Below are positions 1-21,763 of a stretch of DNA of 64,000 bases, piece by piece. The notes below the pieces were generated by a model. It saw only the letters and a program-made list of their open reading frames with translations, was not told where the DNA came from and searched no databases. The position numbers and the translations under genes were made by a program. The stretch comes from Planctomycetota bacterium. GTDB taxonomy: Bacteria > Planctomycetota > Phycisphaerae > WQYP01. Position 1 is the stretch's first letter. Every line of letters begins with the position of its first letter. Where the stretch lies: contig JAJZJL010000002.1 in the NCBI GenBank assembly GCA_021810145.1, positions 4,643 through 68,642 of the forward strand. Reading direction: 5' to 3'.

Positions 1-528
1 AAGCGGATGATCCGATCCGGGATCACCGACTTTTCTCCGATTGGCGCCAATGGATCGCCATAATGCCACAAGATTGGCCGCCCCCACCATCGAAAGTAAT
101 AACGCCGACACGATCCCGCCGAATATACCGCCGAATGCCATTAAGTGGCTTAGCGCGCTGCGCACCTGTTGCACGCTTAAAATAAGTAAAAGCGACAGCA
201 CCATGACCACCGTGGAATGCCCGAGAGAAAACATGAAACCCACGGAGACGCTCTGCCGGCCTTCGCTTAGAAGCCGGCGGGTAATACTGTCGATGGCGGC
301 GATATGGTCGGCATCCATCGCATGGCGCAGGCCGAAAGCGAAAGCCAGAATAGCCAGTGCCAGAAGCGATTGATTGTCGGCCAGGATCAGAACGCTTAAC
401 GTCCAGAGAAACAATCCCATCAGCAGCAGAGATGACAACAAGGCGATTGCCCGCTGCCTCAAGGCGTCAAGCGAATCGCCCTTAGTTCCAGCGCGCCGCA
501 GCAGGAATTCGGTGCGGCTGAATAACAT
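1..528 (-). CDS. NiCoT-family high-affinity nickel/cobalt permease (HoxN/NixA-like). Partial; the 3' end runs off the window start.
   Basis: Minus-strand translation from the ATG at 528 (GGAGAA RBS 6 nt upstream) reads MLFSRTEFLLRR...FGLRHAMDADHIAAIDSITR...FSLGHSTVVM. The HAxDADHIAAID segment is the NiCoT signature motif. The frame stays open to position 1, so the ORF track does not list it. An alternative in-frame ATG at 549 overlaps the hppA stop (TGATG). Confidence 0.75.
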   Translation of the reverse strand, partial: MLFSRTEFLLRRAGTKGDSLDALRQRAIALLSSLLLMGLFLWTLSVLILADNQSLLALAILAFAFGLRHAMDADHIAAIDSITRRLLSEGRQSVSVGFMFSLGHSTVVMVLSLLLILSVQQVRSALSHLMAFGGIFGGIVSALLLSMVGAANLVALWRSIGANRRKVGDPGSDHPL

Positions 529-548
529 TGACGTTCTCCATTGTTCCA

Positions 549-3173
549 TCACACCGATTCAAGCTGCTTTTCCATTTCCGCCATTTCCCGGGTTTCATGC
601 TTGGAGCGGTATACGGCCCAGGCGATCACCGCGATTGCCAATACGCCGATGGTTGCGGCAATCCAGGGAAATGGGCTTAATGGGTGGACGACGACGGAAT
701 TGTGCATGTTGCTTTCGGCTCTCCAAAGTGAAGCATCGAAGGGCAGCATCAGCGGCAATGCCAGCAGCGCCACCATGTTCATGACTTTTAACAGAGGATT
801 AATCGCAGGTCCGGCGGTATCCTTCAGCGGATCACCGACGGTGTCGCCGGTAACGGAGGCTTTGTGGCGTTCAGAACCTTTGCCGGTATTGGCTTTCAAA
901 TTCCGGGCTTCATCTTCAATGGTTTTCTTGGCGTTGTCCCAGGCACCGCCGGAATTGGTCATGAATACCGCCAGCAATTGTCCGGAAAGAATCGCTCCCG
1001 CAAGAAAGCCGGCCAGCGCAACCACGCCCAGAAGAAATCCCACGAGAATCGGCGAGAGAATGGCCAGGAATCCCGGTCCGATTAACTCACGCTGGGCCGT
1101 GGCTGTGCAGATATTGACCACTCGGGCATAATCAGGTTTGGTTTCACCGCTCCAGATTTTTTCATCCTGAAACTGCAATCGACATTCCTTGACAATTAAA
1201 AACGCCGCACGCCCCACGGCGCGAATGGTCATCGAACTGAAAAGGAACGGCACAGCGCCGCCCAGCAGCAATCCGACCAGCAATTTCGGACTGGCAACGG
1301 TCATAATACCGGAGATAACCTGATAAGCCTCACCGCTGATGCGCGCATGATCAGATACGCCTCCGGTAGCCACGAGCGTAATAAATGCCGCGTAAAGACT
1401 CACTGCCGCAATGACAGCCGAACCGATCGCCACGCCCTTGGTCAGTGCTTTGGTGGTATTGCCCGTGGCATCCAGATCCGCGAGTACCTGCCGGGCGGCA
1501 CTGTGCTGCTGCGCTCCCATTTCTTCCGCATCGTAACCCATTTCACCTATGCCGTTGGCATTATCCGCCACCGGGCCGAAGACATCCATACTCAGTGTGT
1601 TACCGGCAAGTGTCAGCATTCCGATACCGACCATGGCAACACCGTAAGCGACAAAAATTGGATTGGTCCCGTAAAATATCAGGCTGCTGGCGGTAAGACA
1701 GCAGGAAATGATAACAATGGCACTGACGCTGCTTTCCAGCCCCACCGCCAATCCGGCGATGATGTTGGTGGCATGTCCGGTGGAACAGGATTTAACCAGT
1801 GAATCCACCGGAGGCTCATGGGTTCCGGTGAAATATTCGGTCGATAAATTCAGCGTAAGAGCCAATATCACGCCAATGAACGTAGCCTCCGCCGGGCGCA
1901 TATCCAAACCCTGAATACCGAAATTAGCCCACCATGGCGCGGAACCCAGTACATGCTTCAAACTCGGATTGGCGGCAATTGCGGCGGCCCCAAAACGCAG
2001 ATAGAGAAATCCCACCAGCAGGAAGCCGACCGTGCTGATGACGGCACCAAGACGATAGCCGCGATTAATGGCGGCCATGGCATCTTTATCCGATCCCTTG
2101 TCCGCGGCCCGCACGCTGAACGTGGCAATCATATCCGAGCAAACCCCCACCGCCCGCACCAGCAACGGAAAAAGCATTCCGATGTGCCCGAAACTGGCCC
2201 AGCCCAGAATCATGGCCGCGACCATTGTCACTTCGTAACTTTCAAAAATATCGGCAGCCATACCCGCGCAATCACCGACATTATCGCCGACATTATCCGC
2301 TATTGTTGCGGCATTACGCGGATCGTCTTCCGGAATATCCTTTTCCACTTTTCCGACAAGGTCAGCACCGACATCGGCGGCTTTGGTATAAATTCCCCCG
2401 CCGACACGCATGAACAAAGCCAGGAGCGTTCCGCCAAAACCAAACCCCAGTAACGCTTCGGGAGCCCGATTACCGAAATACATAAAAATGGTCGTTGCCC
2501 CCAGAAGCCCCAGGCCGTCGTTCAGCATGCCCGTTACGGTTCCCGTGCGATAACCGAGTTGCAGCGCTTTTCCAAAACCCTGGCGGGCGGCGGCAGCCAC
2601 TACCACGTTGCCTTCCGTTGCCATCAGCATACCAATGGTTCCCACGGCCATGGAAAACAGGGATCCCATGAGAAAGGCAATACCGCGACCAATCGGTAGA
2701 CTGGCTCCCGCCGCCGTTGTCCAACTGGCGGTACCCACCAGGATAAAGGTGATCAGCACAATTAAAGGCAACAGGGTTCGGCGTTGCCGGCCAAGATATG
2801 CGATTGAGCCTTGCCGGATGGCATGGGCAACTTCCTTCATTTTTTCCGTTCCATGATCCGCCCGGCGGATAATCCGCATGAGCAGTACGGCATACGCCAA
2901 ACCGGCCAGCGCGATAAACAAAACAGCAAAGAGAGCATAACGTTCAAAAGCGGTAAACGTGGATGTGTATAGAAATCCAAAAGGATGAAATACGCCGGTG
3001 ACAGAGTTCTGCACATGGGCCGCCCCGGGCACCGAACCCTCGGGATAATGGCTGCGCGTTAACGTTATGTAGACAGCGAGAAACAGGATCAGAACGCCAG
3101 TCATGGCTGCACTTTTCGCATGGCCTGCGATAAAGGTTTTCAATTCACTCCAGGACATTGGCATAAAGAACAT
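549..3173 (-). CDS. hppA: Membrane-bound proton-translocating inorganic pyrophosphatase (H+-PPase).
   Basis: 874-aa polytopic protein with GGG(I)YTKAADVGADLVGKVE, DNVGDNVGDCAGMAADIFESY and DATGNTTKA motifs typical of V-type H+-PPases. The Lys in GNTTKA suggests a K+-independent type. It has a ~95-aa N-terminal extension with extra TM helices, so the true start may be a downstream Met. Confidence 0.92.
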   Translation of the reverse strand: MFFMPMSWSELKTFIAGHAKSAAMTGVLILFLAVYITLTRSHYPEGSVPGAAHVQNSVTGVFHPFGFLYTSTFTAFERYALFAVLFIALAGLAYAVLLMRIIRRADHGTEKMKEVAHAIRQGSIAYLGRQRRTLLPLIVLITFILVGTASWTTAAGASLPIGRGIAFLMGSLFSMAVGTIGMLMATEGNVVVAAAARQGFGKALQLGYRTGTVTGMLNDGLGLLGATTIFMYFGNRAPEALLGFGFGGTLLALFMRVGGGIYTKAADVGADLVGKVEKDIPEDDPRNAATIADNVGDNVGDCAGMAADIFESYEVTMVAAMILGWASFGHIGMLFPLLVRAVGVCSDMIATFSVRAADKGSDKDAMAAINRGYRLGAVISTVGFLLVGFLYLRFGAAAIAANPSLKHVLGSAPWWANFGIQGLDMRPAEATFIGVILALTLNLSTEYFTGTHEPPVDSLVKSCSTGHATNIIAGLAVGLESSVSAIVIISCCLTASSLIFYGTNPIFVAYGVAMVGIGMLTLAGNTLSMDVFGPVADNANGIGEMGYDAEEMGAQQHSAARQVLADLDATGNTTKALTKGVAIGSAVIAAVSLYAAFITLVATGGVSDHARISGEAYQVISGIMTVASPKLLVGLLLGGAVPFLFSSMTIRAVGRAAFLIVKECRLQFQDEKIWSGETKPDYARVVNICTATAQRELIGPGFLAILSPILVGFLLGVVALAGFLAGAILSGQLLAVFMTNSGGAWDNAKKTIEDEARNLKANTGKGSERHKASVTGDTVGDPLKDTAGPAINPLLKVMNMVALLALPLMLPFDASLWRAESNMHNSVVVHPLSPFPWIAATIGVLAIAVIAWAVYRSKHETREMAEMEKQLESV

Positions 3174-3751
3174 CCTTTCCGCGCACAGTCAGCGCGATCC
3201 TCAACCCGCGCCCCGCCTGCTTCCAATTCCGTCTGGCATCGCAAAGCGCAACATATTTCCGCAGCTTGATTGTTATTGTTAGATGCACGAATGCGAAACG
3301 CAAGCGATATTTTTTAGATTGTTTATCCACCCACATCCATGTAAGTTTCGGCTACCGCCCTGGAATTCCGTCGGGATGCGATGAGCTTTCAATGACCGCT
3401 CTACCGGATGTGACATACATTTTACCCTTGTCAATACTTGATAATTGTGCATATTTCAGTCTGTCATGCGGGGATCGACATGCTCTTCGCCATGCACAGA
3501 TTTCACGAACATTCTCATGAGTGATTAGGACCTTTACGGATATGCGGACACGGAGATTCACCTATCCCCATTACCGCGTTTTTCTGATTCTGATTTTCAA
3601 CCATACGACCGCGGTTACGGACCTAAGATTTTCACCGATGGCCTTTATGGTTAAACGACCTATATCCGGTAGAGGGATTGTCCTGATGATTTTAACGGCA
3701 TCAGCACATTACCATTGAATCGATGCAGAGCAGAGGCTCGCTTGGGTGGTG

Positions 3752-3767
3752 TGTGAATCGATTCACG
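3752..3767 (+). promoter_or_regulatory. CRP/FNR-family-like palindrome TGTGA-N6-TCACG. It is embedded in a 30-bp near-perfect inverted repeat (~3745-3774), ~40 nt upstream of the hypF start.
   Basis: Read directly: ggtggtgTGTGAatcgatTCACGcaccacc. The arms are 15 bp with one mismatch. The spacing and half-sites match the CRP/FNR consensus TGTGA-N6-TCACA. It sits in the divergent hppA/hypF intergenic region. Confidence 0.4.
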
Positions 3768-3806
3768 CACCACCGGAAGCCTGATGGCTCGGCCGAGGTG
3801 TGCAGC

Positions 3807-6191
3807 ATGAACACACGGTGGGACAACCCGGACGTACAACGCCGCCGCTGGATCATCCACGGTCAGGTGCAGGGCGTGGGCTTCCGACCTTACGTCTATC
3901 GTCTGGCAAACCATGCACAAATCAGCGGCTTTGTGGCCAACGACGCGAGCGGGGTCATCATTGAAGCACAAGGACCGTGCGGAAAGCTGGAGTATTTCAG
4001 TGAAACACTCCAGCGCAATGCACCACCGCTGGCCCGGATCGACGACATGACGCAGGTCATTATTGACCAGCAGGCAGACGAGCACGATTTTTACATCATG
4101 CCAAGTGACGGCCGCGGGCCGGTCCACACCGCCGTCACTCCCGATACCGCATTGTGCGACGAATGTCGGCAGGAAATGTTTGATCCATCCAATCTCCGAT
4201 TTCATCACGCGCTGATCACCTGTACCAATTGCGGCCCGCGCTACAGCATTATTCTTGACGTTCCATACGACCGCCCCGCCACGACCATGGCATCATTTAC
4301 GATGTGCAACCGGTGTTATAAGCAATACAACGCGCCGGCCGACCGACGATTCCACGCCCAGCCCATCTGCTGCCCGGATTGCGGACCTCATATTGAACTG
4401 GTCGACACCGGGGGCCAACCGCTGCCGGGCGATCCGATTGTACAGGCGGCGGAAATGCTGCTGAACGGCGCGATCATCGCCATTAAAGGCATCGGCGGCT
4501 TTCATTTGGCGGCGCGCGCCGATGATGAGTCGGCGATCATGCGATTGCGCGAACACAAACTGCGTGACAACAAACCATTTGCCATTATGTGCCGCAGCGT
4601 GTCTGACGCCCGGCAGTTTATAAAAATCAGCCCACAAGGCCAGAAAGCCATGGAATCCGCAATGGCACCGATTATTCTGGCCATGCGGCAACCTGATGCA
4701 CCCGTGGCGCGGGCAGTGGCGGGTGCCAACTGTCGGCTGGGAGTGATGCTTCCATACACGCCCATTCAACATCTGCTTTTTTCTCAAATGGCGAAGGCTT
4801 TGACGGCCCTGGTAATGACCAGCGGCAATATCACAGACGAACCTCTGGCGATCGGCAATTCCGAGGCAATAGAGCGGCTGGGCGGCATGTGCGATGCGTT
4901 TTTGTGGCATAACCGCCCGATCGCCCGCTGTATTGATGACTCGGTACTTTTGGATATGGGACCGGGACAACCACCTGTGCCGATCAGACGTTCGCGCGGC
5001 TATGTTCCATCAGCGATAGCGCTGCATACGGGAACAGGCGTAACCGGTTTATGCCTGGGTGGAGAGTTGAAAAACACCGTCGGCCTTGTAATGGATTCAC
5101 AGGTCATATTAAGCCAGCATCTGGGGGATCTCACCAACCAGTTGGCGCGAACGCAGTTCATCCGGAGCATTAATGATTTGTGCCGATTGTACAAAGCCAC
5201 GCCACAATTCATAGCCCATGACATGCATCCGCTCTATATCAGCGCCCGGCACGCCGCACAGTTGGCGGCGCAATTTAATGCACCGCTGATTGCCGTACAG
5301 CACCATCATGCGCATGCTGCGTCCGTAATGGCTGAACATGCTGTGCACGGTCCGGTTTTGGCGTTGATCTGTGATGGGACCGGATTGGGCCTCGATGACA
5401 CGGGCTGGGGTTGCGAACTGCTGTGCGCAAGTGCCACGGCCTTCCATCGCGTTGCATCGCTGAATCCGATTCTCCTGCCCGGCGGAGATGTGGCGGCAAA
5501 GGATATTACCCGCAGCGCCGTAGCGCTTCTCTATCAGAGCTTTGGAATGGAATTTGACCAGCATCCCGCCGCGCGGCGACTTGTTCCTGAGGATTCGGAT
5601 CGCAAGATGCTGAAACTCATGATGGCTCGAAAGCTGCAGTGTGTCAGTTCCAGCAGTGCCGGACGACTGTTTGACGGCGTGGCCGCGATGCTGGGACTTT
5701 GCACACGCAACTGCTTTGAAGCCCAGGCGCCCATGGCGCTGGAATCCGCAGCGGCCATGGCTCCGGCACGGGTTCAGACGGGGAAATTCTGGGAGATTAT
5801 GCACGATCAACAAGGCATCAAGAGACTGGACTTACGGCCTCTGATTCAATATCTGCTGCTGCAGCAGCAAAATGACATGCCGGTGGAATTACTGGCGGCG
5901 GTATTCCAAAGTCAGTTCGCGGCGGGATGGGAGGACATTATTTGCCGCGCGGCGGCTGATACACACATTGATACGGTGGCATTATCTGGCGGCGTATTTG
6001 CCAACCAGCTCTTCGCCAACGACCTGACGCATCGGCTGGAACATCACAACCTGAAGGTGCTGCGCCATCGCATCGTACCACCCAATGACGGTGGACTTGC
6101 GTTGGGTCAGGCGCTGGTGGCGGTAACCCGATGGATGAATGAATATGGCGGCTCGCAATCATCCGCTACGGAGTGTGGAACATGTGTTTAG
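3807..6191 (+). CDS. hypF: [NiFe]-hydrogenase maturation carbamoyltransferase HypF.
   Basis: N-terminal acylphosphatase domain (WIIHGQVQGVGFRPYVYRLA), tandem CxxC zinc fingers (CDECRQEMFDPSNLRFHHALITCTNCGPRYSII; CNRCYKQY...CCPDCGP), then YrdC and Kae1-like carbamoyltransferase regions. I chose the ATG at 3807 (GAGGTG RBS) rather than the ORF-track start at 3723. Confidence 0.92.
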   Translation: MNTRWDNPDVQRRRWIIHGQVQGVGFRPYVYRLANHAQISGFVANDASGVIIEAQGPCGKLEYFSETLQRNAPPLARIDDMTQVIIDQQADEHDFYIMPSDGRGPVHTAVTPDTALCDECRQEMFDPSNLRFHHALITCTNCGPRYSIILDVPYDRPATTMASFTMCNRCYKQYNAPADRRFHAQPICCPDCGPHIELVDTGGQPLPGDPIVQAAEMLLNGAIIAIKGIGGFHLAARADDESAIMRLREHKLRDNKPFAIMCRSVSDARQFIKISPQGQKAMESAMAPIILAMRQPDAPVARAVAGANCRLGVMLPYTPIQHLLFSQMAKALTALVMTSGNITDEPLAIGNSEAIERLGGMCDAFLWHNRPIARCIDDSVLLDMGPGQPPVPIRRSRGYVPSAIALHTGTGVTGLCLGGELKNTVGLVMDSQVILSQHLGDLTNQLARTQFIRSINDLCRLYKATPQFIAHDMHPLYISARHAAQLAAQFNAPLIAVQHHHAHAASVMAEHAVHGPVLALICDGTGLGLDDTGWGCELLCASATAFHRVASLNPILLPGGDVAAKDITRSAVALLYQSFGMEFDQHPAARRLVPEDSDRKMLKLMMARKLQCVSSSSAGRLFDGVAAMLGLCTRNCFEAQAPMALESAAAMAPARVQTGKFWEIMHDQQGIKRLDLRPLIQYLLLQQQNDMPVELLAAVFQSQFAAGWEDIICRAAADTHIDTVALSGGVFANQLFANDLTHRLEHHNLKVLRHRIVPPNDGGLALGQALVAVTRWMNEYGGSQSSATECGTCV

Positions 6192-6469
6192 CGGTACCGG
6201 CAAAACTGATTCGACAGGATGGCCAGCAGGGCATTGTCGACCTGCACGGCAATCGCCTGCCGGTTAATACGATGATGACTCCCGAGGCCAAACCCGGCGA
6301 CTGGATCTTAATTCATGCCGGATTCGCCATCGAGCGGCTTAATCCGGAGGCGGCCCGTGAAACCTTTGCACTGTTGGAAGAAGTTGACCGAACCAGCGGC
6401 AACAGCGATTACCGGCCCGATGCGCAACAAAACACCGCAACACCGGCTGTGCGAGGAGATATGTCATGA
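6182..6469 (+). CDS. hypC: Hydrogenase maturation factor HypC/HupF.
   Basis: Starts MCLAVPAKLI. The Met-Cys start is the HypC hallmark and the protein has an OB-fold-like sequence. GGAG sits 9 nt upstream. It overlaps the hypF stop. The C-terminal extension is longer than in canonical ~90-aa HypC. Confidence 0.85.
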   Translation: MCLAVPAKLIRQDGQQGIVDLHGNRLPVNTMMTPEAKPGDWILIHAGFAIERLNPEAARETFALLEEVDRTSGNSDYRPDAQQNTATPAVRGDMS

Positions 6470-7602
6470 GTTCGACACACGCCTTCACGGATAATCTGTT
6501 GCAGCGCCTGCGGGAAGCGGCAGCAGCCATTGGACAGAACGTGGCGTTCATGGAAGTATGCGGAACGCATACCACCAGCGCTTTTCGTTGCGGCTTGCCC
6601 AGCGTTCTGCCTCCCAATGTACGACTCATCAGCGGGCCGGGCTGTCCGGTGTGTGTCACGTCCCAGGGCGATATTGACAGGCTCATTGATCTCGGCGCGC
6701 GGCGGGATGTCATTTTATGCACCTACGGCGACATGCTGCGGGTTCCGGGACGGCATGGAAATCTTGAAAATGCCCGGGTACGTGGAGGCCGGATTGAGGT
6801 TGTCTACAGCAGCATGGACGCAGTAAAACTGGCGCAAAAGCAACCGGATCGTGAAGTGGTATTTGCCGCGGTAGGCTTTGAAACCACCGCTCCGGCCACG
6901 GCTGCGGCCATTTGCGAAGCGCAACGGCTCAATATTGGAAATTTCAGCGTCCTGGCAAGTCACAAACGCATCATTCCCGCGATGCGGGCACTTTTGACCG
7001 ATGGAGAAATTCCCAAAATCAAAGGATTTCTCTGTCCGGGGCATGTGTCGGTGATTATCGGCTCGGAAGTATATCAGAGCATTGTTGATCAGTTCGGGGT
7101 GTCATGTGTGGTCGGTGGTTTTGAACCACCGCAATTGCTTTCCGCCCTGGTATGTCTGATCGAACTGGTTGTAAATAACAAAACCGCCCTGGTGAATCAG
7201 TACCCCGAAGCGGTGCACGCCAGGGGAAATCGCTGGGCACTGACACTGCTTGAGAAGATTTTTGAACCCGGCGCGGCCCGCTGGCGCGGCATGGGTACCA
7301 TACCTGACAGCGGCCTGATACTGCGAAGCGATTATCAGAGCTTTGATGCAGCACGGCGATTCAATCTGCCTGAACCGCAGGAGCGTGAACCGGCAGGATG
7401 TATTTGCGGCAAGGTTATCAGTGGCGCGGCGCTTCCCGGACAATGCCGGCTCTTTGGACGAGCCTGTACGCCCATTTCACCGATCGGCCCCTGCATGGTC
7501 AGTTCCGAAGGTACATGCTCGGCATGGTTTAAGTATGGTAAAAGCAACCAACGGACAATTCCGCCTGCACACTTAAATGAATTGCTGGAGGTTTCGTCAT
7601 GA
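6466..7602 (+). CDS. hypD: Hydrogenase maturation factor HypD.
   Basis: FMEVCGTHT, GPGCPVCV and CPGHVSVI Fe-S motifs characteristic of HypD. ATGA overlap with hypC. Confidence 0.92.
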   Translation: MSSTHAFTDNLLQRLREAAAAIGQNVAFMEVCGTHTTSAFRCGLPSVLPPNVRLISGPGCPVCVTSQGDIDRLIDLGARRDVILCTYGDMLRVPGRHGNLENARVRGGRIEVVYSSMDAVKLAQKQPDREVVFAAVGFETTAPATAAAICEAQRLNIGNFSVLASHKRIIPAMRALLTDGEIPKIKGFLCPGHVSVIIGSEVYQSIVDQFGVSCVVGGFEPPQLLSALVCLIELVVNNKTALVNQYPEAVHARGNRWALTLLEKIFEPGAARWRGMGTIPDSGLILRSDYQSFDAARRFNLPEPQEREPAGCICGKVISGAALPGQCRLFGRACTPISPIGPCMVSSEGTCSAWFKYGKSNQRTIPPAHLNELLEVSS

Positions 7603-17100: not shown

Positions 17101-17782
17101 CGATGGATGGGCATATGACATTGATTTTGGCGGACTGGATCATGTTTTGAGTCTGCCTTTTGATATCAATATTCTGGTTCTGGACACGGAAGTGTATTCC
17201 AATACCGGCGGCCAAAGTTCCAAGAGCACTCCCATTGGCGCAGTAGCCAAATTTGCCGCCGCCGGAAAAGCCACCCAGAAAAAGGACCTGGGACTTATGG
17301 CGATGAGTTATCGGCATGCCTATGTGGCAAGTGTCGCTTTTGGAGCCAATGATAATCACACCGTTCGCGTTTTCAGTGAAGCCGCAAGTTACCCCGGCCC
17401 ATCATTGATTATTGCATACAGCCACTGCATTGCGCATGGGTATGATCTCAAATTCGGGATCAATCAGCAGAAATTAGCCGTGGATAGCGGCGTGTGGCCG
17501 CTGTATCACTATGACCCGCGACTGCTGGCCCGCGGAAAACCGCCGCTGCAGATTGATTCGCCGAGCCAAAAGGCCAATGTGCGCGATTATCTTCGCAATG
17601 AGACACGCTTTTCCATGATTGAAAAAATGAATCCTGAAAGATTCCGCATGCTTTCGGAAGCATCCGTACGCAATACCGCCGAACGATTGGCACTGTACAG
17701 CCGGCTTGCGAGCTTTGCGTTTCCGGAACCCGAGGCCCCGGCTGAAGCAAGTCTAGCCGCCGATGAGGCGAAAGGAGAATAA
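14171..17782 (+). CDS. nifJ: Pyruvate:ferredoxin (flavodoxin) oxidoreductase, single-polypeptide PFOR.
   Basis: 1203 aa. The N-terminus MNTQGHTTIDGNEAAASVAYRTSEAAVIYPITPSS is canonical. It has two 4Fe-4S ferredoxin motifs (CIQCNKCAFVCPHAAI, CTGCGLCVEVCP) and TPP-binding GGDGWAYDIDFGG. ATGA overlap with hoxW. Confidence 0.93.
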   Translation: MNTQGHTTIDGNEAAASVAYRTSEAAVIYPITPSSPMGEFFDEWSTRGQANIWGDVPKIVEMQSEGGAIGAVHGALQAGSLCTTATSSQGLLLMIPNLYKIAGELTSFVIQVAARSLSTHALSIFGDHSDVMACRQTGFAMLASMNVQEAHDQAAVALAASLRSRVPFIHFFDGFRTSHELNGVAMLSDDQLRTLIPQQWIAAHRKRALTPDAPVLRGTAQNPDTFFQAREAANPFYDALPGIIVEEMRRFGQLIGRPYEPYEYRGHPQASRVMIIMGSGAETTSETVRYLLQQDQRVGCVIVRMFRPFAGDLLVRAIPATARKIAVMDRTKEPGSAGEPLYQDVVTSLARAKMTGALPMGELPMVIGGRYGLSSKEFTPAMVKAVFDELDQAHPKARFTVGINDDVTHLSLKVDESFDLPMGDVVQAVFYGLGADGTVGANKNSIKIIGDQTDLHAQGYFVYDSKKSGAMTISHLRFGKEPIHAAYLIRKANFIACHQFEFLQRMDILELAAPGSVFLLNAPLEAQQLWDHLPVEIQQTIIEKRLRLFAIDANAVARDTGMGRRINTIMQTAFFAISGVLPRAAAIEAIKKAIKKSYQKRGEEVVQRNYNAVDQTLANLHEITVPATATSAIRQESFTQPAMPPFTQRVQAVMMAGKGDLLPVSAFPVDGTWPTGTTKWEKRNIAVEIPEWDQQFCIQCNKCAFVCPHAAIRAKLYDAGELAGAPKLFKHMAYKAPDFKGMSYTLQVAPEDCTGCGLCVEVCPAKDKANPKHKAINMVPQRPIRDRERDNFNFFLNIPELDRTRIARLDVKASQFLLPLFEFSGACAGCGETPYIKLLTQLFGDRLIIANATGCSSIYGGNLPTTPYTTNRDGRGPAWNNSLFEDNAEFGMGMRLSVDQHIRQAQRLLRELSGHIGDSLTSAILQADQTSEKAIADQRQRVVELRKVLQNIDQPQAAALAQIADYLVRKSVWIIGGDGWAYDIDFGGLDHVLSLPFDINILVLDTEVYSNTGGQSSKSTPIGAVAKFAAAGKATQKKDLGLMAMSYRHAYVASVAFGANDNHTVRVFSEAASYPGPSLIIAYSHCIAHGYDLKFGINQQKLAVDSGVWPLYHYDPRLLARGKPPLQIDSPSQKANVRDYLRNETRFSMIEKMNPERFRMLSEASVRNTAERLALYSRLASFAFPEPEAPAEASLAADEAKGE

Positions 17783-17786
17783 GGTT

Positions 17787-18809
17787 ATGGATATGTCTAC
17801 AAACTATATGGGATTTGAACTTCCGCATCCGCTGATTCCCGGAGCATCTCCGATGGTCGGCGATATGGATACCGTTCGCCGCCTGGAAGATGCCGGCGCT
17901 CCAATGATTATCATGCACTCAATATTTGAGGAGCAACTGGTTAAAGAAGAGCTGTACGTGGACTGGACACTAACCCAGGGAGAGTACAACTCAAGCGAAG
18001 CATCCAGCTATCTTCCAACGCCGTACAATTTTCGTCTGGGACCGGATGCCTATCTTACGCAGTTGCAGAAAATAAAGGCTGCCGTGCATGTGCCGGTGAT
18101 TGCCTCGCTGAATGGGCGTACGCTTGGCGGCTGGACCGCCTACGCGAAGTTGCTGGAGGACGCCGGAGCCGACGGCATTGAATTGAATCTCTACGATCTG
18201 GCACTTTCAGCGTTTCGGGATTCGACGGATGTTGAACGCGAATCTCTGGCGATCATACAGGACGTGCGAAAGGCGGTTGAAGTTCCTTTGGCCGTGAAGC
18301 TGTCACCGTTTTATACTTCGCCGGTGCATTTTGTCGCTCAGGCAGTCAAATCCGGTGCGGGAAGCGTGGTGATCTTCAATCGCTTTTATCAAGCCGACAT
18401 TGATATTGAAAATCTCACGGTAACACGGGAACTCAAGCTCTCCACATCCGATGAACTTTTACCCCGCCTGCGATGGACCGCGGCGATCAGTGGACAGGTA
18501 GATTGCCAGGTGGCCATTACCGGTGGCGTTCAGAATGCCCGCGACGCCGTAAAGTGCCTGATGGTTGGGGCAGACGCCGTGCAAATCGTTTCAGCGCTTT
18601 TGGAATATGGTGCGGACCATCTGACGGTATTGCGCAATGCCCTGGCCGAATGGATGCAGTCCCATGAATATACATCCGTGAAACAGATGAAAGGCTCCAT
18701 GAGCATGGCGCGATCATCGGAGCCGGAACTCTTCGAGCGAGGCAATTATATTCAGATTCTTCAGGGGTGGAAAAAAGCGGAATCCGGCATGGAGTGTTTC
18801 TGGAGCTGA
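17787..18809 (+). CDS. Dihydroorotate-dehydrogenase-like FMN TIM-barrel protein lacking the catalytic Cys/Ser.
   Basis: Class-1 DHOD-like layout: PVIASLNG, VKLSP, IFNRF, ITGGV and VGADAVQIVSAL are all present. The active-site NISCPN is replaced by NLYDLA. Start 5 nt after the nifJ stop. Confidence 0.7.
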   Translation: MDMSTNYMGFELPHPLIPGASPMVGDMDTVRRLEDAGAPMIIMHSIFEEQLVKEELYVDWTLTQGEYNSSEASSYLPTPYNFRLGPDAYLTQLQKIKAAVHVPVIASLNGRTLGGWTAYAKLLEDAGADGIELNLYDLALSAFRDSTDVERESLAIIQDVRKAVEVPLAVKLSPFYTSPVHFVAQAVKSGAGSVVIFNRFYQADIDIENLTVTRELKLSTSDELLPRLRWTAAISGQVDCQVAITGGVQNARDAVKCLMVGADAVQIVSALLEYGADHLTVLRNALAEWMQSHEYTSVKQMKGSMSMARSSEPELFERGNYIQILQGWKKAESGMECFWS

Positions 18810-18812: not shown

Positions 18813-19247
18813 ATGCATGAAGTTTCAATTGCGGAATCGTTGATTGCGTTAATCCGCCGTCACCTGCCGGCGCATCAGCGCCTTGTTCAGGCTACGGTGC
18901 GCATCGGACCGATGCACGGCATAGTACCGGAGGCCATGGAAATGGCATGGAATATCGCCAGTGCTGATGCGGGCTGGAAGGGATCACGGTTAATCGTCAT
19001 GACACCGCCCTGGCGATTGCGTTGTGTGGTGTGCGGGCGCTGCTGGGAACCGGTAACGGTTGACGAGCATTGCGTTTGTGGAGCCGCACACGTTGAGATT
19101 TTAGGCGGCGATGAGTTCCAATTGGATAGCATTGATGTTCATTCGGCGGCGAAACATCGCAGGCGGAACACCGCGCGACATGGCCGAGGCCGTCCGAGAA
19201 CTTTTACAAGGGGAGTCGCACATGAGCACCAAAGTTCCCATCGTTGA
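18813..19247 (+). CDS. hypA: Hydrogenase nickel-incorporation protein HypA, with a ~30-aa basic C-terminal extension.
   Basis: MHEVSIAESLIALIRRHLP N-terminus with the MHE Ni-binding motif, and a Zn site CVVCGRCW...HCVCG. The ORF continues ~30 aa past the usual HypA end and overlaps hypB. Confidence 0.85.
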   Translation: MHEVSIAESLIALIRRHLPAHQRLVQATVRIGPMHGIVPEAMEMAWNIASADAGWKGSRLIVMTPPWRLRCVVCGRCWEPVTVDEHCVCGAAHVEILGGDEFQLDSIDVHSAAKHRRRNTARHGRGRPRTFTRGVAHEHQSSHR

Positions 19248-19932
19248 AAATGTGCTCAAACTTAACGATGAATTGGCCCTGCAGAATCGGGAACTTTTTC
19301 AACGCTCCGGTGTGTTTGCCGTGGATTTAATCGGTGCCCCCGGTGCGGGAAAAACCGCTCTTCTGGAGTTCACGCTTCGGCAACTCAAGGACGTCATCAA
19401 CATCGGCGTGATTGTCGGTGATCCGGCAACCAGCCGCGACGGAGATCGTCTGGCCAAATACTCGCGGCATATTGTGCAGGTCAACACCGGAAGCGGGTGC
19501 CACCTCGATGCGAATCAGGTGCGCCATGCCATGGATAAACTCAAACTCGCCGATCTGGATGTACTGATTATTGAAAACGTGGGAAATCTCATCTGCCCGG
19601 TCTCCTTTAATTTGGGCCAGCACTGCAAGATCGGCATGTTCAGCGTCAGTGAAGGCGATGACAAAGCCGCCAAGCATCCGAATCTGGTTGTATCCGCTGA
19701 TCTGCTGATTCTGAATAAAATGGATCTGATTCCTTATATCCCATTTGATCTCGCACGCTTCCGGCAGGATGTTGAACATCTTAATCGCGCCGCCCCTTTG
19801 CTGGAAATTTCCGTTGTGCGCAATCAGGCCGCATCATGGCTGGACTGGTTGACGGCTCGCGCCGGGCAACAGAAGTCATTCCGAAAGGCCGGCAAGCATA
19901 AGGAAAAGGCCGTGGCAAGGAGTCAACGATGA
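19222..19932 (+). CDS. hypB: Hydrogenase nickel-incorporation GTPase HypB.
   Basis: GAPGAGKTALLE P-loop, ENVGNLICP and NKMDL G-motifs of the HypB/UreG family. I chose the ATG at 19222 with an AAGGGGAG RBS. It lacks an N-terminal His-stretch. Confidence 0.9.
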   Translation: MSTKVPIVENVLKLNDELALQNRELFQRSGVFAVDLIGAPGAGKTALLEFTLRQLKDVINIGVIVGDPATSRDGDRLAKYSRHIVQVNTGSGCHLDANQVRHAMDKLKLADLDVLIIENVGNLICPVSFNLGQHCKIGMFSVSEGDDKAAKHPNLVVSADLLILNKMDLIPYIPFDLARFRQDVEHLNRAAPLLEISVVRNQAASWLDWLTARAGQQKSFRKAGKHKEKAVARSQR

Positions 19933-20312
19933 AACTTGCGGTACCGGTATTGAATGGACAACTGTTCCCACACTTCGGCAGAAGTTCCGAGTTTGCGTTT
20001 TTTCAGTTCGATGCCACCACCGGAAACATTGTGTCAAAAGAGATTCTCGCCGCTCCCCCGCATGAACCGGGAATACTTCCCGCCTGGCTTCAATCGCACC
20101 GGATCAGTGTTTTGATAACCGGAGGAATCGGCGCACAGGCGGCCGAGCTGTGCCGCCGCAATGCAATACAGGTTCTGGCCGGCGCTCCTTCGGAGCCGGT
20201 TGAAAGGATCGTTACCGACTGGTTGCAGGGGCGTCTCGAACTTCATGCCAACGTGTGTACGCGGGATGAACATCATGAACATCGTCAGTGCGGAGAACAT
20301 CACCATGTCTGA
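19929..20312 (+). CDS. NifX/NafY/NifB-C-terminal-like (dinitrogenase FeMo-cofactor-binding family) small protein with a His-rich C-terminal tail.
   Basis: MKLAVPVLNGQLFPHFGRSSEFAFFQF...ISVLITGGIGAQAAELCRRNAIQVLAG matches the PF02579-type pattern (MKIAIP..HFG....GGIG..A...L...GI.V). The tail is HANVCTRDEHHEHRQCGEHHHV. ATGA overlap with hypB. Confidence 0.65.
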   Translation: MKLAVPVLNGQLFPHFGRSSEFAFFQFDATTGNIVSKEILAAPPHEPGILPAWLQSHRISVLITGGIGAQAAELCRRNAIQVLAGAPSEPVERIVTDWLQGRLELHANVCTRDEHHEHRQCGEHHHV

Positions 20313-20736
20313 TATGATTAAGCCACCAGCTCCCGGAGGTATTGCTTACGGTCCAAGTTGGCCGCACGCAATGAAAATACCGTTCGCCCTGAACATTCCA
20401 GGCATAGCACGGCAGGTCTCGGATTGCGACACGGTTTATGTGAAACATCCCGAGATCATGCATGAGGATATCTTTTCGTCCCCGCGTGGCCGCACGATGA
20501 CCAACGGCCTGTTGCGGCAGGGGCGAGCGGCAGCATCGCAATTAATCATCACGTTTCGCCAGCCGGCGGGGCTGAATATGCCCGCACCGTTGCAGGCCTG
20601 GATGATTACGAGAAAGCCTCAGGTGTTCCGCTTACCTGCCGCGATTATGCAGGATGGCGTGGCTAAGGCGGAAGCCCGCGCAAGCTTGATGTTGCCCAAG
20701 TGGAAAGACCTGGCAATACTGGACATACCGCAATGA
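20305..20736 (+). CDS. Hypothetical protein (144 aa) translationally coupled to the NifX-like gene.
   Basis: ATG at 20305 with GGAG 9 nt upstream. It overlaps the previous stop (ATGTCTGA). I recognised no family. The listed ORF 20161-20736 probably over-extends 5'. Confidence 0.35.
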   Translation: MSDMIKPPAPGGIAYGPSWPHAMKIPFALNIPGIARQVSDCDTVYVKHPEIMHEDIFSSPRGRTMTNGLLRQGRAAASQLIITFRQPAGLNMPAPLQAWMITRKPQVFRLPAAIMQDGVAKAEARASLMLPKWKDLAILDIPQ

Positions 20737-21086
20737 TATCGAACGTGGCCAATACGGTTTTGCTCGAAAACGCCGCACTTCAAGAGCTTTTTGCGGATCA
20801 GCGAGTTTCTGTGCTTTTGGCCAACATGGGTGCTCTGCTTAATGCAATTGATGATGCCGGAGAATGGCGGCGGATCAAACAATACCACACGCCGCGAGTT
20901 CCAGGTTGTTCCAGCAGGAATCAACTGCAACGAGTCGGTCTGGCTGTAACGCCGGGCCGGAAATTCTATTGGCAGGAACCACAACAAGTACTGAATTGCC
21001 CGCCGCATCGACCGTCGTTGCGACCTGGTGGTCTTCCCGCTTCCTCCGGAGAGCAGGACGATCAGACCACTGACCGGCAATCTTAA
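20733..21086 (+). CDS. Hypothetical protein. Low confidence; the C-terminal half is low-complexity.
   Basis: ATGA overlap with the preceding ORF. The N-terminal half looks helical and protein-like (MISNVANTVLLENAALQELFADQRVSVLLANMGALLNAIDDAGEWRRIK). The end is uncertain. Confidence 0.2.
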   Translation: MISNVANTVLLENAALQELFADQRVSVLLANMGALLNAIDDAGEWRRIKQYHTPRVPGCSSRNQLQRVGLAVTPGRKFYWQEPQQVLNCPPHRPSLRPGGLPASSGEQDDQTTDRQS

Positions 21087-21142
21087 GCCAATAGCAATAA
21101 GGGCCGTCAATACTTTTCACTGACTCCGGAAGAGAGGTTGCC

Positions 21143-21763
21143 ATGAAGCGAGTACTGGTCAATATTATCATCGACACCCTGGCAGCAATGGTGATGCTGG
21201 GATTGCTCGCCACCGGAATTATTTTGCGTTTTACGCTCCCTCCACGCAGCGGCCGCGTACGGACGCTGTGGAGTATGAGCCGGCACCAGTGGGGCGACCT
21301 GCACTTCTGGTTGGCACTGGCAGCTGTGGCAATTGTACTTCTACATCTGGCACTGCACTGGGATTGGGTAGTCTGCATCGTGCGCCGCTGGCTGGTCGGC
21401 GTTAATCAAGGTGGCCCCAGCAAGCGTTTACGAGTGTTTAGCGCCATAATTACGGCACTGATTGTCGCTTCGGCGATAACAAGTTTCTGGTGGATTTCCA
21501 CGCGGTCTGTAAAGCCCGCCGGTATGATTCAATCCGGGGGAAACGGATTTTCAAGCTCCGGATCCAACCTCCCCGGCAGCATGACTCTGGTTCGGACCGC
21601 CGCCACCTTGCATTGTTCCATCGCGGAGGTAAAGCATCGACTGGGATTGGCTTCCACCACTCCTGAAAGTGAACGGCTCGGCCAAATCGCCAGAGAACGG
21701 GGAGTAACCATGCGGGAAATTCGAAACCGCCTGGAATTGCAGAGCCGACACACCCAACCTTGA
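21143..21763 (+). CDS. DUF4405-like polytopic membrane protein with a ~90-aa cytoplasmic C-terminal extension.
   Basis: GAGAGG RBS. 3-4 TM helices with the conserved His/Trp pattern RHQWGDLHFWLALAAVAIVLLHLALHWDWVV reminiscent of DUF4405. The C-terminal part is HTH-like (LGQIARERGVTMREIRNRLE). Confidence 0.5.
   Translation: MKRVLVNIIIDTLAAMVMLGLLATGIILRFTLPPRSGRVRTLWSMSRHQWGDLHFWLALAAVAIVLLHLALHWDWVVCIVRRWLVGVNQGGPSKRLRVFSAIITALIVASAITSFWWISTRSVKPAGMIQSGGNGFSSSGSNLPGSMTLVRTAATLHCSIAEVKHRLGLASTTPESERLGQIARERGVTMREIRNRLELQSRHTQP

What the first reader, a model, noticed from the sequence alone, without database searches (positions are those of the whole stretch)
1..21763. A single 21-kb Ni/hydrogenase supercluster: NiCoT permease, H+-PPase, hypFCDE, hoxEFUYHW, PFOR, DHOD-like, hypAB, NifX-like and unknown genes
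All maturation (hypA-F), structural (hoxEFUYH), protease (hoxW) and nickel-uptake (NiCoT) functions for a bidirectional NAD-linked [NiFe]-hydrogenase are co-located. Most are translationally coupled through ATGA overlaps. A PFOR is fused directly into the operon (ATGA overlap with hoxW). This implies a dedicated pyruvate to ferredoxin to Hox(EFU) to H2 fermentative module. An H+-pyrophosphatase sits immediately upstream of, and co-oriented with, the nickel permease (TGATG overlap), which is not a usual hydrogenase-cluster member.
Basis: partly seen in the sequence, partly recalled or inferred. Interest (0 to 1): 0.5.

Follow-up and report, generated by a model that had tools for sequence, protein, structure and literature searches.

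The report
Hydrogenase operon with built-in pyruvate oxidoreductase
This is an intact gene cluster from an uncultured planctomycete (class Phycisphaerae) for a Hox-type nickel-iron hydrogenase, all its assembly factors and a pyruvate-oxidising enzyme; it is a well-known kind of fermentative hydrogen module seen in a new lineage, with two poorly understood conserved companion gene pairs.

Summary
Every hox and hyp assignment passes curated HMM thresholds or carries its signature residues, and the stated overlaps are in the sequence. The region is two divergent units. On the minus strand lies a membrane pyrophosphatase followed by a NiCoT nickel permease. On the plus strand lies hypFCDE-hoxEFUYHW-PFOR-(DHOD-like)-hypAB, followed by four species-specific genes.

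The exact plus-strand order recurs in seven related Phycisphaerae species. Other planctomycetes, Verrucomicrobiota and Acidobacteriota place PFOR-(DHOD-like) upstream of hox instead. PFOR next to hox or hyp genes, and the pyruvate-to-hydrogen idea, were already published for cyanobacteria, so this is a new member of a known kind.

A 2026 preprint shows that the cyanobacterial enzyme needs both NADH and reduced ferredoxin.

Three things are less expected:
- The DHOD-like FMN protein is a partner of PFOR, not of the hydrogenase. PFOR lies directly upstream in 58 of 65 independent loci.
- The pyrophosphatase-permease pair is conserved on its own in all four relatives examined with at least 49% permease identity.
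- A Rex/CRP-like palindrome lies upstream of hypF.

Transcription and enzyme activity were not tested.

The parts
1..549 (-). 5' part of a NiCoT (HoxN/NixA family) nickel/cobalt permease gene. The first ATG is at 549-547 and overlaps the pyrophosphatase stop codon. The more likely start is the ATG at 528-526, preceded by GGAGA. The gene runs off the window start.
   Evidence: TIGR00802 and NF052500 give partial matches. The HAMDADH signature is present. The full 359-aa gene with PF03824 is seen in L087. The start context is shown.
549..3173 (-). Membrane-bound proton-pumping pyrophosphatase, long form of 871-874 aa. The conserved start is probably the ATG at 3164.
   Evidence: PF03030 scores 746 bits and NF001952 scores 915 against a cut-off of 912. 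The GNTTKALTKG motif has Lys at the position that marks the K+-independent type. The start MPMSW is conserved in L007 and L170.
3174..3806 (.). Divergent intergenic control region. It holds conserved non-coding blocks at about 3515-3690.
   Evidence: The blocks are shared with L007 and L170, and partly with L171 and L172. There is no Rfam match and no RNA-fold signal.
3745..3774 (.). A 30-nt palindrome, GGTGGTGTGTGAATC|GATTCACGCACCACC. Its core, TGTGAATCGATTCACG, resembles a Rex or CRP box and lies 48 nt upstream of the hypF ATG.
   Evidence: The same box occurs upstream of hypF in 4 of 24 loci, against 0.008 expected per region.
3807..6191 (+). hypF, carbamoyltransferase (794 aa from the ATG at 3807)
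   Evidence: TIGR00143 scores 712 bits. All HypF domains are present. Gene callers chose the same start.
6182..6469 (+). hypC, chaperone; the protein starts MC
   Evidence: PF01455 and TIGR00074
6466..7602 (+). hypD
   Evidence: TIGR00075 scores 415 bits. The CGTH, GPGCPVC, GFETT and PGHVS motifs are present.
7599..8654 (+). hypE; the protein ends PRIC
   Evidence: TIGR02124 scores 382 bits
8694..9206 (+). hoxE, [2Fe-2S] diaphorase subunit
   Evidence: NF005747 equivalog scores 233 against a cut-off of 224
9203..10861 (+). hoxF, the NAD(H)/FMN subunit. It has an N-terminal [2Fe-2S] domain and the AFM, GAGAF and GGPSG motifs.
   Evidence: The best solved relative is HydB of PDB entry 7t2r at 635 bits. 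That entry is, from my own knowledge, the electron-bifurcating NiFe hydrogenase HydABCSL of Acetomicrobium mobile.
10858..11586 (+). hoxU, iron-sulfur subunit
   Evidence: NF005745 equivalog scores 378 against a cut-off of 333
11583..12149 (+). hoxY, hydrogenase small subunit
   Evidence: PF01058 scores 106 bits
12191..13621 (+). hoxH, [NiFe] large subunit with a 25-residue C-terminal extension
   Evidence: PF00374 and PF27537. Both CxxC pairs are present. The best solved relatives are 7t2r_D at 506 bits and 5xf9_D at 421 bits.
13602..14174 (+). hoxW, maturation endopeptidase. It overlaps hoxH by 20 nt.
   Evidence: TIGR00072 scores 76 against a cut-off of 47. The GNxxRADDGAG, FVDAS and GHHF motifs are present. 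Population SNPs fall 2/1/13 by codon position.
14171..17782 (+). NifJ-type pyruvate:ferredoxin/flavodoxin oxidoreductase. It has an ATGA overlap with hoxW.
   Evidence: TIGR02176 scores 1717 bits. The junction is shown. The position is conserved in L007-L014.
17787..18809 (+). DHOD-like FMN barrel protein (NF005741 family). It is a partner of PFOR and lacks the dihydroorotate dehydrogenase catalytic cysteine.
18813..19247 (+). hypA. It has the MHE nickel site, a CxxC...CxC zinc site and a 30-residue basic tail.
   Evidence: PF01155 scores 77 bits. TIGR00100 is below its cut-off.
19222..19932 (+). hypB, GTPase. It has no N-terminal histidine-rich stretch.
   Evidence: TIGR00073 scores 230 bits
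19929..20312 (+). NifX/NifB-C-like protein (PF02579) with a histidine-rich tail, DEHHEHRQCGEHHHV. It is species-specific.
   Evidence: It is absent from all other species loci.
20305..20736 (+). Unknown ORF (unk1). Species-specific, with no family match.
   Evidence: There are too few SNPs to judge selection.
20733..21086 (+). Unknown ORF (unk2). It has an ATGA overlap with unk1.
21143..21763 (+). DUF4405 membrane protein with a weak resemblance to hydrogenase cytochrome b. Species-specific.
   Evidence: PF14358 scores 57 bits. PF01292 scores 20.5 bits, below its cut-off of 30.1.

Best explanation
Overall reading. The region encodes a self-contained module for cytoplasmic hydrogen metabolism in a Phycisphaerae bacterium.

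Plus-strand genes. They are packed like one operon, with 12 of 17 junctions overlapping. They encode:
- the six Hyp maturases;
- the five-subunit Hox hydrogenase (HoxEFU diaphorase plus the HoxYH catalytic dimer);
- its C-terminal endopeptidase HoxW;
- a NifJ-type PFOR;
- the usual companion of PFOR, a DHOD-like FMN protein.

Most likely mechanism (inferred by homology, not shown). During anaerobic sugar or lactate breakdown, PFOR oxidises pyruvate to acetyl-CoA and reduces a ferredoxin or flavodoxin encoded elsewhere in the genome. Glycolysis supplies NADH. HoxEFU merges both electron streams at its flavin (confurcation), and HoxYH releases H2. This allows acetate-linked ATP formation.

Regulation (inferred). 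A Rex/CRP-like palindrome just upstream of hypF suggests redox-responsive control of the whole unit.

Minus-strand pair (inferred). It supplies nickel through a NiCoT secondary permease. It also encodes a K+-independent proton-pumping pyrophosphatase. The pair is conserved as a unit in this lineage. This suggests that a proton gradient driven by pyrophosphate supports nickel uptake, or energy conservation more generally, when respiration is off.

Shown versus inferred. Shown: gene identities, signature residues, overlaps, synteny and purifying selection. Inferred: co-transcription, the direction of catalysis, the donor pair, and any coupling between the pyrophosphatase and the permease.
For: HMM thresholds and catalytic motifs are met for all Hox and Hyp proteins, PFOR, the pyrophosphatase and NiCoT.

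The overlaps were verified in the sequence.

The order is identical in six independent assemblies. The order hypFCDE-hoxEFUYHW-PFOR-DHODl-hypAB is also found in the Phycisphaerae relatives L007, L008, L009, L011, L012 and L014, with L010 partial.

PFOR lies within 10 kb of hoxH in 16 of 80 species-level loci, including Verrucomicrobiota and Acidobacteriota.

SNPs are biased to the third codon position in hoxH (0/0/7), PFOR (4/1/30), hoxW (2/1/13) and DHODl (2/1/7).

HoxH and HoxF are closest to the subunits of PDB entry 7t2r (506 and 635 bits). They are closer to these than to the NAD-reducing hydrogenase 5xf9 (421 bits). That 7t2r is the electron-bifurcating HydABCSL enzyme of Acetomicrobium mobile is my own knowledge, not a tool result.

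HoxF carries AFM, GGPSG, GAGAF and the N-terminal [2Fe-2S] domain. The preprint 10.64898/2026.06.25.734504 names AFM and GGPSG, together with a single-phenylalanine motif, as features of confurcating Hox.

In Synechocystis, nifJ and hox are induced together under low oxygen (PMC11368403).

The pyrophosphatase-NiCoT pair is seen in L170, L171, L172 and L173.

The palindrome is enriched upstream of hypF, in 4 of 24 loci against about 0.2 expected.
Against: There are no expression or activity data.

The promoter and terminator scans were uninformative: 17 sites against 15.8 expected, and 22 against 22.4.

No ferredoxin or flavodoxin gene lies in the cluster or was noticed in the window.

Both Hox and PFOR are reversible, so the direction cannot be read from sequence.

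HoxF lacks the C-terminal ferredoxin-like domain of HydB (552 aa against 597 aa).

Confurcation rests on one preprint about a cyanobacterial enzyme. I did not measure its identity to this one.

The pyrophosphatase is absent next to the cluster in L008, L009, L011 and L014. It sits in another position, without NiCoT, in L012.

The palindrome is missing or degenerate in L007, L008, L011 and L014.
Confidence: 0.6

Rival explanations
1. Uptake direction. Hox oxidises H2 and bifurcates the electrons to NAD+ and ferredoxin. PFOR runs backwards as a pyruvate synthase, fixing CO2 onto acetyl-CoA. The operon would then serve H2-supported mixotrophy rather than fermentation.
For: The Synechocystis enzyme works in both directions. 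NifJ-type PFORs are reversible (established knowledge). Placing a source of low-potential ferredoxin next to a consumer of it would make sense either way.
Against: The window also carries genes that generate pyruvate: pyruvate kinase, LutABC and an FAD/FeS lactate-dehydrogenase-like protein. No carbon-fixation genes were seen nearby. Known Phycisphaerae are heterotrophs (my own knowledge, not tested here).
Confidence: 0.15
2. Co-location without dedicated coupling. Hox acts as a general NAD(H)-linked redox valve. PFOR-DHODl is an independent, mobile two-gene module that happened to insert between hoxW and hypA in one lineage.
For: PFOR-DHODl occurs without hox or hyp genes nearby in most loci chosen by DHODl similarity; only 5 of 80 have them. 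Its position relative to hox varies among lineages: upstream, downstream, divergent or absent. Sister planctomycetes have hoxW followed directly by hypAB.
Against: The linkage recurs independently in at least three phyla. The ATGA overlap with hoxW is retained across seven species. Cyanobacteria show co-regulation and reduced fermentative H2 production in a strain lacking PFOR.
Confidence: 0.15
3. The DHOD-like flavoprotein, rather than a soluble ferredoxin, is the physiological acceptor or relay for PFOR electrons in this module.
For: PFOR lies directly upstream of DHODl in 58 of 65 evaluable metagenome loci and 13 of 13 genome loci. No ferredoxin gene lies in the operon. The predicted fold is the FMN domain of dihydropyrimidine dehydrogenase; in that enzyme the FMN is fed by iron-sulfur clusters (established knowledge). 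The catalytic cysteine of dihydroorotate dehydrogenase is absent.
Against: FMN barrels of this fold normally carry out two-electron substrate chemistry at moderate potential. There are no iron-sulfur motifs and no evidence of interaction. The family mostly occurs without hydrogenase genes.
Confidence: 0.1

Closest known systems
Cyanobacterial bidirectional hydrogenase HoxEFUYH with the nifJ (PFOR) operon of Synechocystis sp. PCC 6803
   Same: It has the same five subunits. The HoxE and HoxU equivalog models are passed. The HoxF bifurcation motifs and the N-terminal [2Fe-2S] domain are present. PFOR acts as the ferredoxin source. According to PMC11368403, the Synechocystis nifJ transcription unit also holds a gene annotated 'dihydroorotate dehydrogenase (fumarate)' (sll0744). 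JGI gives the same automatic name to relatives of the DHOD-like protein here.
   Different: In Synechocystis the hox, nifJ, hyp and hoxW genes are scattered. Here they form one packed unit. The host is a non-photosynthetic planctomycete. I did not verify by sequence that sll0744 is the orthologue of the protein here.
Cyanobacterial hox and hyp clusters with an adjacent PFOR gene (Lyngbya aestuarii and L. majuscula, Arthrospira maxima, Synechococcus WH 5701)
   Same: PFOR is physically linked to hox or hyp genes, and the same fermentative interpretation has been published (PMC2974642, PMC3858816).
   Different: In Lyngbya, PFOR lies before hoxE. Here it lies between hoxW and hypA with an ATGA overlap, and all six hyp genes are included.
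Electron-bifurcating [NiFe]-hydrogenase HydABCSL of Acetomicrobium mobile (PDB 7t2r, 7t30). The organism and the bifurcating function are from my own knowledge; the PDB table names the chains only 'NiFe hydrogenase'.
   Same: It is the best solved relative of both HoxH (506 bits) and HoxF (635 bits). The flavin-site motifs are shared.
   Different: HoxF here is 552 aa and lacks the C-terminal extra domain of the 597-aa HydB. The subunits here pass the cyanobacterial HoxE and HoxU models.
NAD+-reducing soluble hydrogenase HoxFUYH (Hydrogenophilus thermoluteolus, PDB 5xf9)
   Same: It belongs to the same broad group of NAD-linked [NiFe] hydrogenases and has the same large-subunit architecture.
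   Different: It is a more distant relative (421 bits). It has no HoxE subunit, and it is an aerobic H2-oxidising enzyme (my own knowledge).
Class 1 dihydroorotate dehydrogenases and the FMN domain of dihydropyrimidine dehydrogenase
   Same: They share the FMN-binding barrel fold (TM-score about 0.65-0.68). The VKLSP lysine, an FNR asparagine and the GGV phosphate-binding motif are conserved.
   Different: Identity is only 17-20%. ELNxYD stands where ELNISCPN lies in the aligned L. lactis enzyme (PDB 1ep1); I take the Cys of that segment to be the catalytic base from my own knowledge. The family has its own invariant motifs (SLNG, GGW, FNRFYQxDID) and a fixed position downstream of PFOR.

Membership tests
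Hox-type (group 3d) NAD-linked [NiFe]-hydrogenase | Large subunit with N- and C-terminal CxxC nickel-iron ligands and a cleavable C-terminal extension | tested here: met
   RIEGH, CGIC at residue 62, and DPCLSCSTH at residue 443 followed by 25 residues. PF00374 and PF27537.
Hox-type (group 3d) NAD-linked [NiFe]-hydrogenase | HoxE, HoxF and HoxU diaphorase subunits encoded together with HoxY and HoxH | tested here: met
   NF005747 (233 against 224), NF010120 (394 against 389) and NF005745 (378 against 333). The genes are contiguous.
Hox-type (group 3d) NAD-linked [NiFe]-hydrogenase | Reversible H2/NAD(H) activity | not testable with these tools
   This needs purified enzyme or cell assays.
Flavin-based electron-bifurcating/confurcating hydrogenases (HydABC, HydABCSL, Hox) | AFM, single-Phe and GGPSG motifs around the FMN, plus an N-terminal [2Fe-2S] domain in the NuoF-like subunit | tested here: met
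   AFM at residue 203, GAGAF at residue 279 and GGPSG at residue 398. PF01257 covers residues 21-96 of HoxF. That the Phe of GAGAF is the 'single-Phe motif' is my inference.
Flavin-based electron-bifurcating/confurcating hydrogenases (HydABC, HydABCSL, Hox) | Obligate simultaneous use of NADH and reduced ferredoxin | not testable with these tools
   This is a biochemical property.
NifJ-type pyruvate:ferredoxin/flavodoxin oxidoreductase | A single polypeptide of about 1200 aa with the POR_N, PFOR_II, POR, EKR, 2x[4Fe-4S] and TPP domains | tested here: met
   TIGR02176 scores 1717 against a cut-off of 911 and matches end to end. The Pfam domains are in the expected order.
Dihydroorotate dehydrogenase (class 1) | Catalytic Cys or Ser base in the N-x-S-C-P-N loop | tested here: not met
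   The aligned segment is ELNLYDLAL against ELNISCPNV of PDB 1ep1. The Asn and Tyr of the N-x-Y segment are invariant in 29 family members. All DHOD equivalog models score far below their cut-offs.
NF005741 'dihydroorotate dehydrogenase-like protein' | Score above the curated cut-off over the full length | tested here: met
   392 bits against a cut-off of 303, covering residues 9-337.
[NiFe]-hydrogenase maturation endopeptidase (HoxW, HybD, HycI) | Family model plus the three metal-binding acidic/His positions | tested here: met
   TIGR00072 scores 76 against a cut-off of 47. The RADDGAG, FVDAS and GHHF motifs are present. There was no Pfam hit at 1e-3. The metal-binding positions were assigned by eye from the motifs.
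HypA nickel metallochaperone | N-terminal MHE nickel site and a CxxC...CxxC zinc site | tested here: inconclusive
   MHE and CVVC are present, but the second motif is CVC (CxC). Pfam scores 77 against 29, while TIGR00100 scores 52 against 88.
NiCoT (HoxN/NixA) permease | HX4DH signature in transmembrane helix 2 | tested here: met
   GLRHAMDADHIAAID. PF03824 matches the full-length copy.
K+-independent H+-translocating membrane pyrophosphatase | Lys, not Ala, in the GNTT(K/A)A motif | tested here: met
   GNTTKALTKG at residue 571. The rule itself is from my own knowledge. NCBIfam labels the family 'sodium-translocating' as a generic name. Ion specificity was not tested.

The most novel reading that the evidence does not exclude
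The DHOD-like FMN protein is an obligate, still uncharacterised redox partner of NifJ-type PFOR across many phyla. It may accept PFOR electrons or divert them to an unknown acceptor. In this lineage the PFOR-flavoprotein pair has been wired directly into a confurcating hydrogenase operon. Separately, a conserved operon of a pyrophosphatase and a nickel permease would point to metal uptake energised by pyrophosphate.
Probability: 0.2. Interest if true: 0.6.

Novelty: new member of a known kind. Interest (0 to 1): 0.3.

Why it matters
The cluster shows that Hox hydrogenase genes linked to PFOR, long discussed for cyanobacteria, also occur as a single compact unit in uncultured Phycisphaerae. It shows too that the linkage recurs in Verrucomicrobiota and Acidobacteriota. 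This supports a general fermentative role for the enzyme, fed by NADH plus ferredoxin, in environmental heterotrophs.

Its practical value is as a compact set of 16 conserved genes for heterologous expression. It also points to two large gaps in annotation. One is the PFOR-associated DHOD-like flavoprotein family, with thousands of members and almost no literature. The other is a lineage-specific pairing of a pyrophosphatase with a nickel permease.

Nothing here overturns current understanding.

Tried and rejected
- Promoter and terminator consensus scans over 3000-22900 gave counts equal to shuffled sequence, so they say nothing about transcript boundaries.
- An Rfam search of 1-24000 at E up to 1 found nothing.
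- I tested whether the long, conserved leader of the pyrophosphatase gene is a structured RNA. The single-sequence fold has a z-score of -0.57. The four-sequence consensus fold is -3.5 kcal/mol with essentially no covariation. I rejected the idea; the conserved blocks are more likely DNA-level sites.
- Pfam at E up to 5 and NCBIfam gave nothing for unk1 and unk2. The C-terminal half of the DUF4405 protein gave only sub-threshold hits to helix-turn-helix domains.
- Population SNPs were too few to decide whether the nifX-like gene, unk1 and unk2 are under selection.
The AlphaFold-database fold library was unavailable, so I could not confirm by structure that the protein is the orthologue of Synechocystis sll0744.
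- Literature searches for a link between a pyrophosphatase and nickel or hydrogenase, and for group 3d hydrogenases in Phycisphaerae, returned nothing relevant.
- I considered horizontal acquisition of the cluster as an island. GC content is uniform (0.53-0.57) and the nearest HoxH relatives are all Planctomycetota, so nothing supports it. A strain-level breakpoint does exist at about 23212.

Full report
**What is there.**

ORF listing and HMM scans give a clean gene map.

- Minus strand:
  - An 871-874 aa membrane pyrophosphatase at 549-3173 (PF03030, 746 bits).
  - It is followed by the first 176-183 codons of a NiCoT nickel permease at 1-549, which carries the HAMDADH signature.
  - The permease is 359 aa in full on a metagenome contig that extends past the window. 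Beyond it lies a convergent PhoD gene.
- Plus strand:
  - After a 633-nt intergenic region come hypF, hypC, hypD, hypE, hoxE, hoxF, hoxU, hoxY, hoxH, hoxW, a 1203-aa NifJ-type PFOR, a 340-aa DHOD-like protein, hypA and hypB.
  - Then come a NifX-like PF02579 protein, two ORFs with no family match, and a DUF4405 membrane protein. The last gene ends at 21763.
- Thresholds:
  - All Hox and Hyp proteins pass curated thresholds, with two exceptions.
  - HypA passes Pfam but not the TIGR00100 equivalog cut-off.
  - HoxW has no Pfam hit but passes TIGR00072 (76 against 47 bits).
- Signature residues are intact:
  - HoxH has RIEGH, two CxxC pairs and a 25-residue tail after DPCLSCSTH.
  - HypC starts MC, and HypE ends PRIC.
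  - HypD has its four motifs.
  - HypB has GAPGAGKT and the CH motif.
  - HoxW has the acidic and His positions.

**The junctions.**

The sequence shows eight ATGA overlaps: hypC/D, hypD/E, hoxE/F, hoxF/U, hoxU/Y, hoxW/PFOR, hypB/nifX-like and unk1/unk2. There are four other overlaps: hypF/C (10 nt), hoxH/W (20 nt), hypA/B (26 nt) and nifX-like/unk1 (8 nt).

The five gaps are 3 to 56 nt. Good ribosome-binding sites precede hoxE, hoxH and the DHOD-like gene.

The TGATG overlap between the pyrophosphatase stop codon and the first ATG of the permease is real. The next ATG, 21 nt downstream, is preceded by GGAGA and is the start that gene callers chose. The genes are therefore either overlapping or 20 nt apart.

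These are two divergent units, not one co-oriented cluster.

**Source and reality of the arrangement.**

An identical HoxH is indexed in 32 blocks of the contig collection. The six loci fetched have the same gene order at 97-100% protein identity. The window also matches an NCBI MAG contig at 99.9%.

The nearest species-level genomes are Planctomycetota/Phycisphaerae MAGs, with HoxH identity up to 90%.

Among the strain variants, SNPs concentrate at third codon positions: hoxH 0/0/7, PFOR 4/1/30, hoxW 2/1/13 and the DHOD-like gene 2/1/7. These genes are therefore under purifying selection.

**Synteny.**

I mapped the window's proteins by tblastn onto 80 species-representative hoxH loci with 10-kb flanks.

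- The full order hypFCDE-hoxEFUYHW-PFOR-DHODl-hypAB occurs only in the closest Phycisphaerae clade (L007-L014, HoxH at least 77% identical).
- More distant planctomycetes have hoxW followed directly by hypAB, or carry PFOR-DHODl upstream of hypC (L017, L066).
- PFOR-DHODl upstream of hox also occurs in Verrucomicrobiota (L031, L052, L055), an Acidobacteriota MAG (L082) and L035.
- PFOR lies within 10 kb of hoxH in 16 of the 80 loci.
- The nifX-like gene, unk1, unk2 and the DUF4405 gene were found in no other species. They are a species-specific appendage of uncertain relevance.

**What is known already.**

- Barz et al. 2010 (PMC2974642):
  - Every completely sequenced cyanobacterium that has hox genes also has nifJ.
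  - In Synechococcus WH 5701 and Arthrospira, nifJ sits in or near the hyp or hox genes.
  - From this they inferred that the enzyme disposes of fermentative electrons through PFOR.
- Kothari et al. 2013 (PMC3858816) describe PFOR directly before hoxE in Lyngbya.
- In Synechocystis, the hox and nifJ operons are induced together under low oxygen (PMC11368403).
- A June 2026 preprint reports that purified Synechocystis HoxEFUYH makes H2 only with NADH plus reduced ferredoxin.
  - It names AFM, a single Phe and GGPSG as the flavin-site motifs shared with bifurcating hydrogenases.

The HoxF here has AFM (residue 203), GAGAF (residue 279), GGPSG (residue 398) and the N-terminal [2Fe-2S] domain. That the Phe of GAGAF corresponds to the single-Phe motif is my inference.

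The best solved relatives of HoxH and HoxF are the subunits of PDB entry 7t2r, ahead of the NAD-reducing enzyme 5xf9. Entry 7t2r is, from my own knowledge, the bifurcating NiFe hydrogenase of Acetomicrobium mobile.

For this organism all of it is inference by homology.

**The DHOD-like protein.**

- It passes NF005741 (392 against 303 bits) but fails every true dihydroorotate dehydrogenase model.
- Where the aligned Lactococcus enzyme has ELNISCPN, with the Cys that I take to be the catalytic base, this protein has ELNLYD.
- The Asn and Tyr of that N-x-Y segment, together with SLNG, GGW and FNRFYQxDID, are conserved in the family.
- An AlphaFold model (pLDDT 82.6) matches the FMN domain of dihydropyrimidine dehydrogenase and class 1 enzymes at TM-score about 0.65-0.68 and 17-20% identity.
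- In the hoxH loci it follows PFOR in 13 of 13 cases where the PFOR 3' end is present.
- Among 80 metagenome loci fetched by similarity to this protein alone, PFOR lies directly upstream on the same strand in 58 of 65 evaluable cases. Hox or hyp genes are nearby in only 5.
- It is therefore a partner of PFOR, not of the hydrogenase.
- The family is large, with at least 7967 hits below 1e-20.
- The only literature I found is two mentions:
  - A gene annotated the same way lies in the Synechocystis nifJ transcription unit.
  - Another flanks a Propionibacterium PFOR.
- Its function is unknown.

**The pyrophosphatase-permease pair.**

- Next to the hydrogenase cluster, the pyrophosphatase is seen only in three places:
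  - the window species;
  - L007, where it is divergent as here and 92% identical;
  - L012, where it is downstream of hypB and has no permease.
- I looked up permease homologues at 73, 67, 58 and 49% identity. Each has an 856-872 aa pyrophosphatase immediately upstream on the same strand.
- Two of these pairs lie next to hypFCD and two do not.
- A 42% homologue sits in a urease cluster without a pyrophosphatase.
- The pair is thus a conserved unit in this lineage and is only sometimes parked beside the hydrogenase genes.
- The GNTTKALTKG motif marks the K+-independent type, whose characterised members pump protons (my own knowledge).
- A functional link is plausible but unshown. One possibility is a proton gradient made from pyrophosphate that drives a secondary nickel permease during fermentation.

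**Regulatory features.**

- The intergenic region holds blocks conserved with L007 and L170, and partly with loci that lack hypF.
- They match no Rfam family and show no RNA-structure signal.
- A 30-nt palindrome at 3745-3774 has the core TGTGAATCGATTCACG, which resembles the Rex and CRP consensus. It lies 48 nt before hypF.
- One match in the window is not significant by itself, since 2.2 are expected at up to two mismatches.
- Across loci, however, the box occurs within 260 nt upstream of hypF in 4 of 24 cases, against 0.008 expected per region. Two of the four are perfect TTGTGAA-N4-TTCACAG sites, in L012 and in the cultured strain ZRK34.
- This suggests redox-responsive or CRP-family control. 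The regulator was not identified.

**Verdict.**

This is a real, intact and well-conserved hydrogenase-plus-PFOR operon.

It is a new member of a known kind. The less expected elements are the PFOR-linked flavoprotein, the pyrophosphatase-permease pair and the candidate operator.

Noticed in passing
window 23121-23438, breakpoint near 23212: Another strain's contig (L088) matches the window from 44152 down to 23212 and then diverges into a 735-aa gene with sigma-70 domains. The window keeps only the 3' remnant of that gene. The 2 kb between the cluster and trpE is therefore a point of strain-level rearrangement.
   Followed up: partly
window 3515-3690: Non-coding blocks are conserved with L007 and L170, for example AATCAGAAAAACGCGGTAATGGGGATAGGTGAATCTCCGTGTCCGCATATCCGTAAAGGTCCTA in pyrophosphatase sense, with a repeated ATAGGT motif. 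The region upstream of the pyrophosphatase gene is 630-920 nt long in every locus, even where no divergent gene is present. There is no Rfam hit and no fold signal.
   Followed up: partly
L007 17762-20956 (minus strand): In the closest species, the pntAB transhydrogenase genes (PF02233, PF12769, PF01262/PF05222) lie convergent directly after hypB. In Synechocystis, pntAB is co-regulated with hox and nifJ under low oxygen (PMC11368403).
   Followed up: partly
window 19929-20312: The NifX-like PF02579 protein ends in a histidine-rich tail, DEHHEHRQCGEHHHV. HypB here has no histidine-rich N-terminus. The tail might store or deliver nickel. The gene is absent from related species.
   Followed up: no
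window 18813-19247: HypA has a CxC motif (HCVCG) instead of the second CxxC zinc motif. It also has a 30-residue Arg/His-rich tail that overlaps the hypB start. The tail length is kept in L007 and L009.
   Followed up: no
window 21143-21763: The DUF4405 membrane protein has a sub-threshold resemblance to the cytochrome b subunit of hydrogenases (PF01292, 20.5 bits against a cut-off of 30.1). Its C-terminal half has weak hits to helix-turn-helix domains.
   Followed up: partly
window 28007-29461, 41869-44840 and 56764-59733: The same 64-kb window holds pyruvate kinase, LutABC lactate-utilisation genes and a 989-aa FAD/FeS/CCG protein resembling D-lactate dehydrogenase. All of these feed pyruvate, which fits a pyruvate-centred fermentative metabolism. 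The proximity could also be coincidence.
   Followed up: partly
L020 and L022, between hoxW and hypA: Two Phycisphaerae loci, one of them the cultured strain ZRK34, carry a second, distant HoxY/HoxH-like pair (25-32% identity) between hoxW and hypAB. This is the position where the window clade has PFOR-DHODl.
   Followed up: no
window 549-3173: The pyrophosphatase is unusually long, with extensions of about 80 residues at the N-terminus and 65 at the C-terminus beyond the Pfam domain. The C-terminal extension contains an extra hydrophobic stretch. The length (856-872 aa) is conserved in all copies paired with NiCoT.
   Followed up: no
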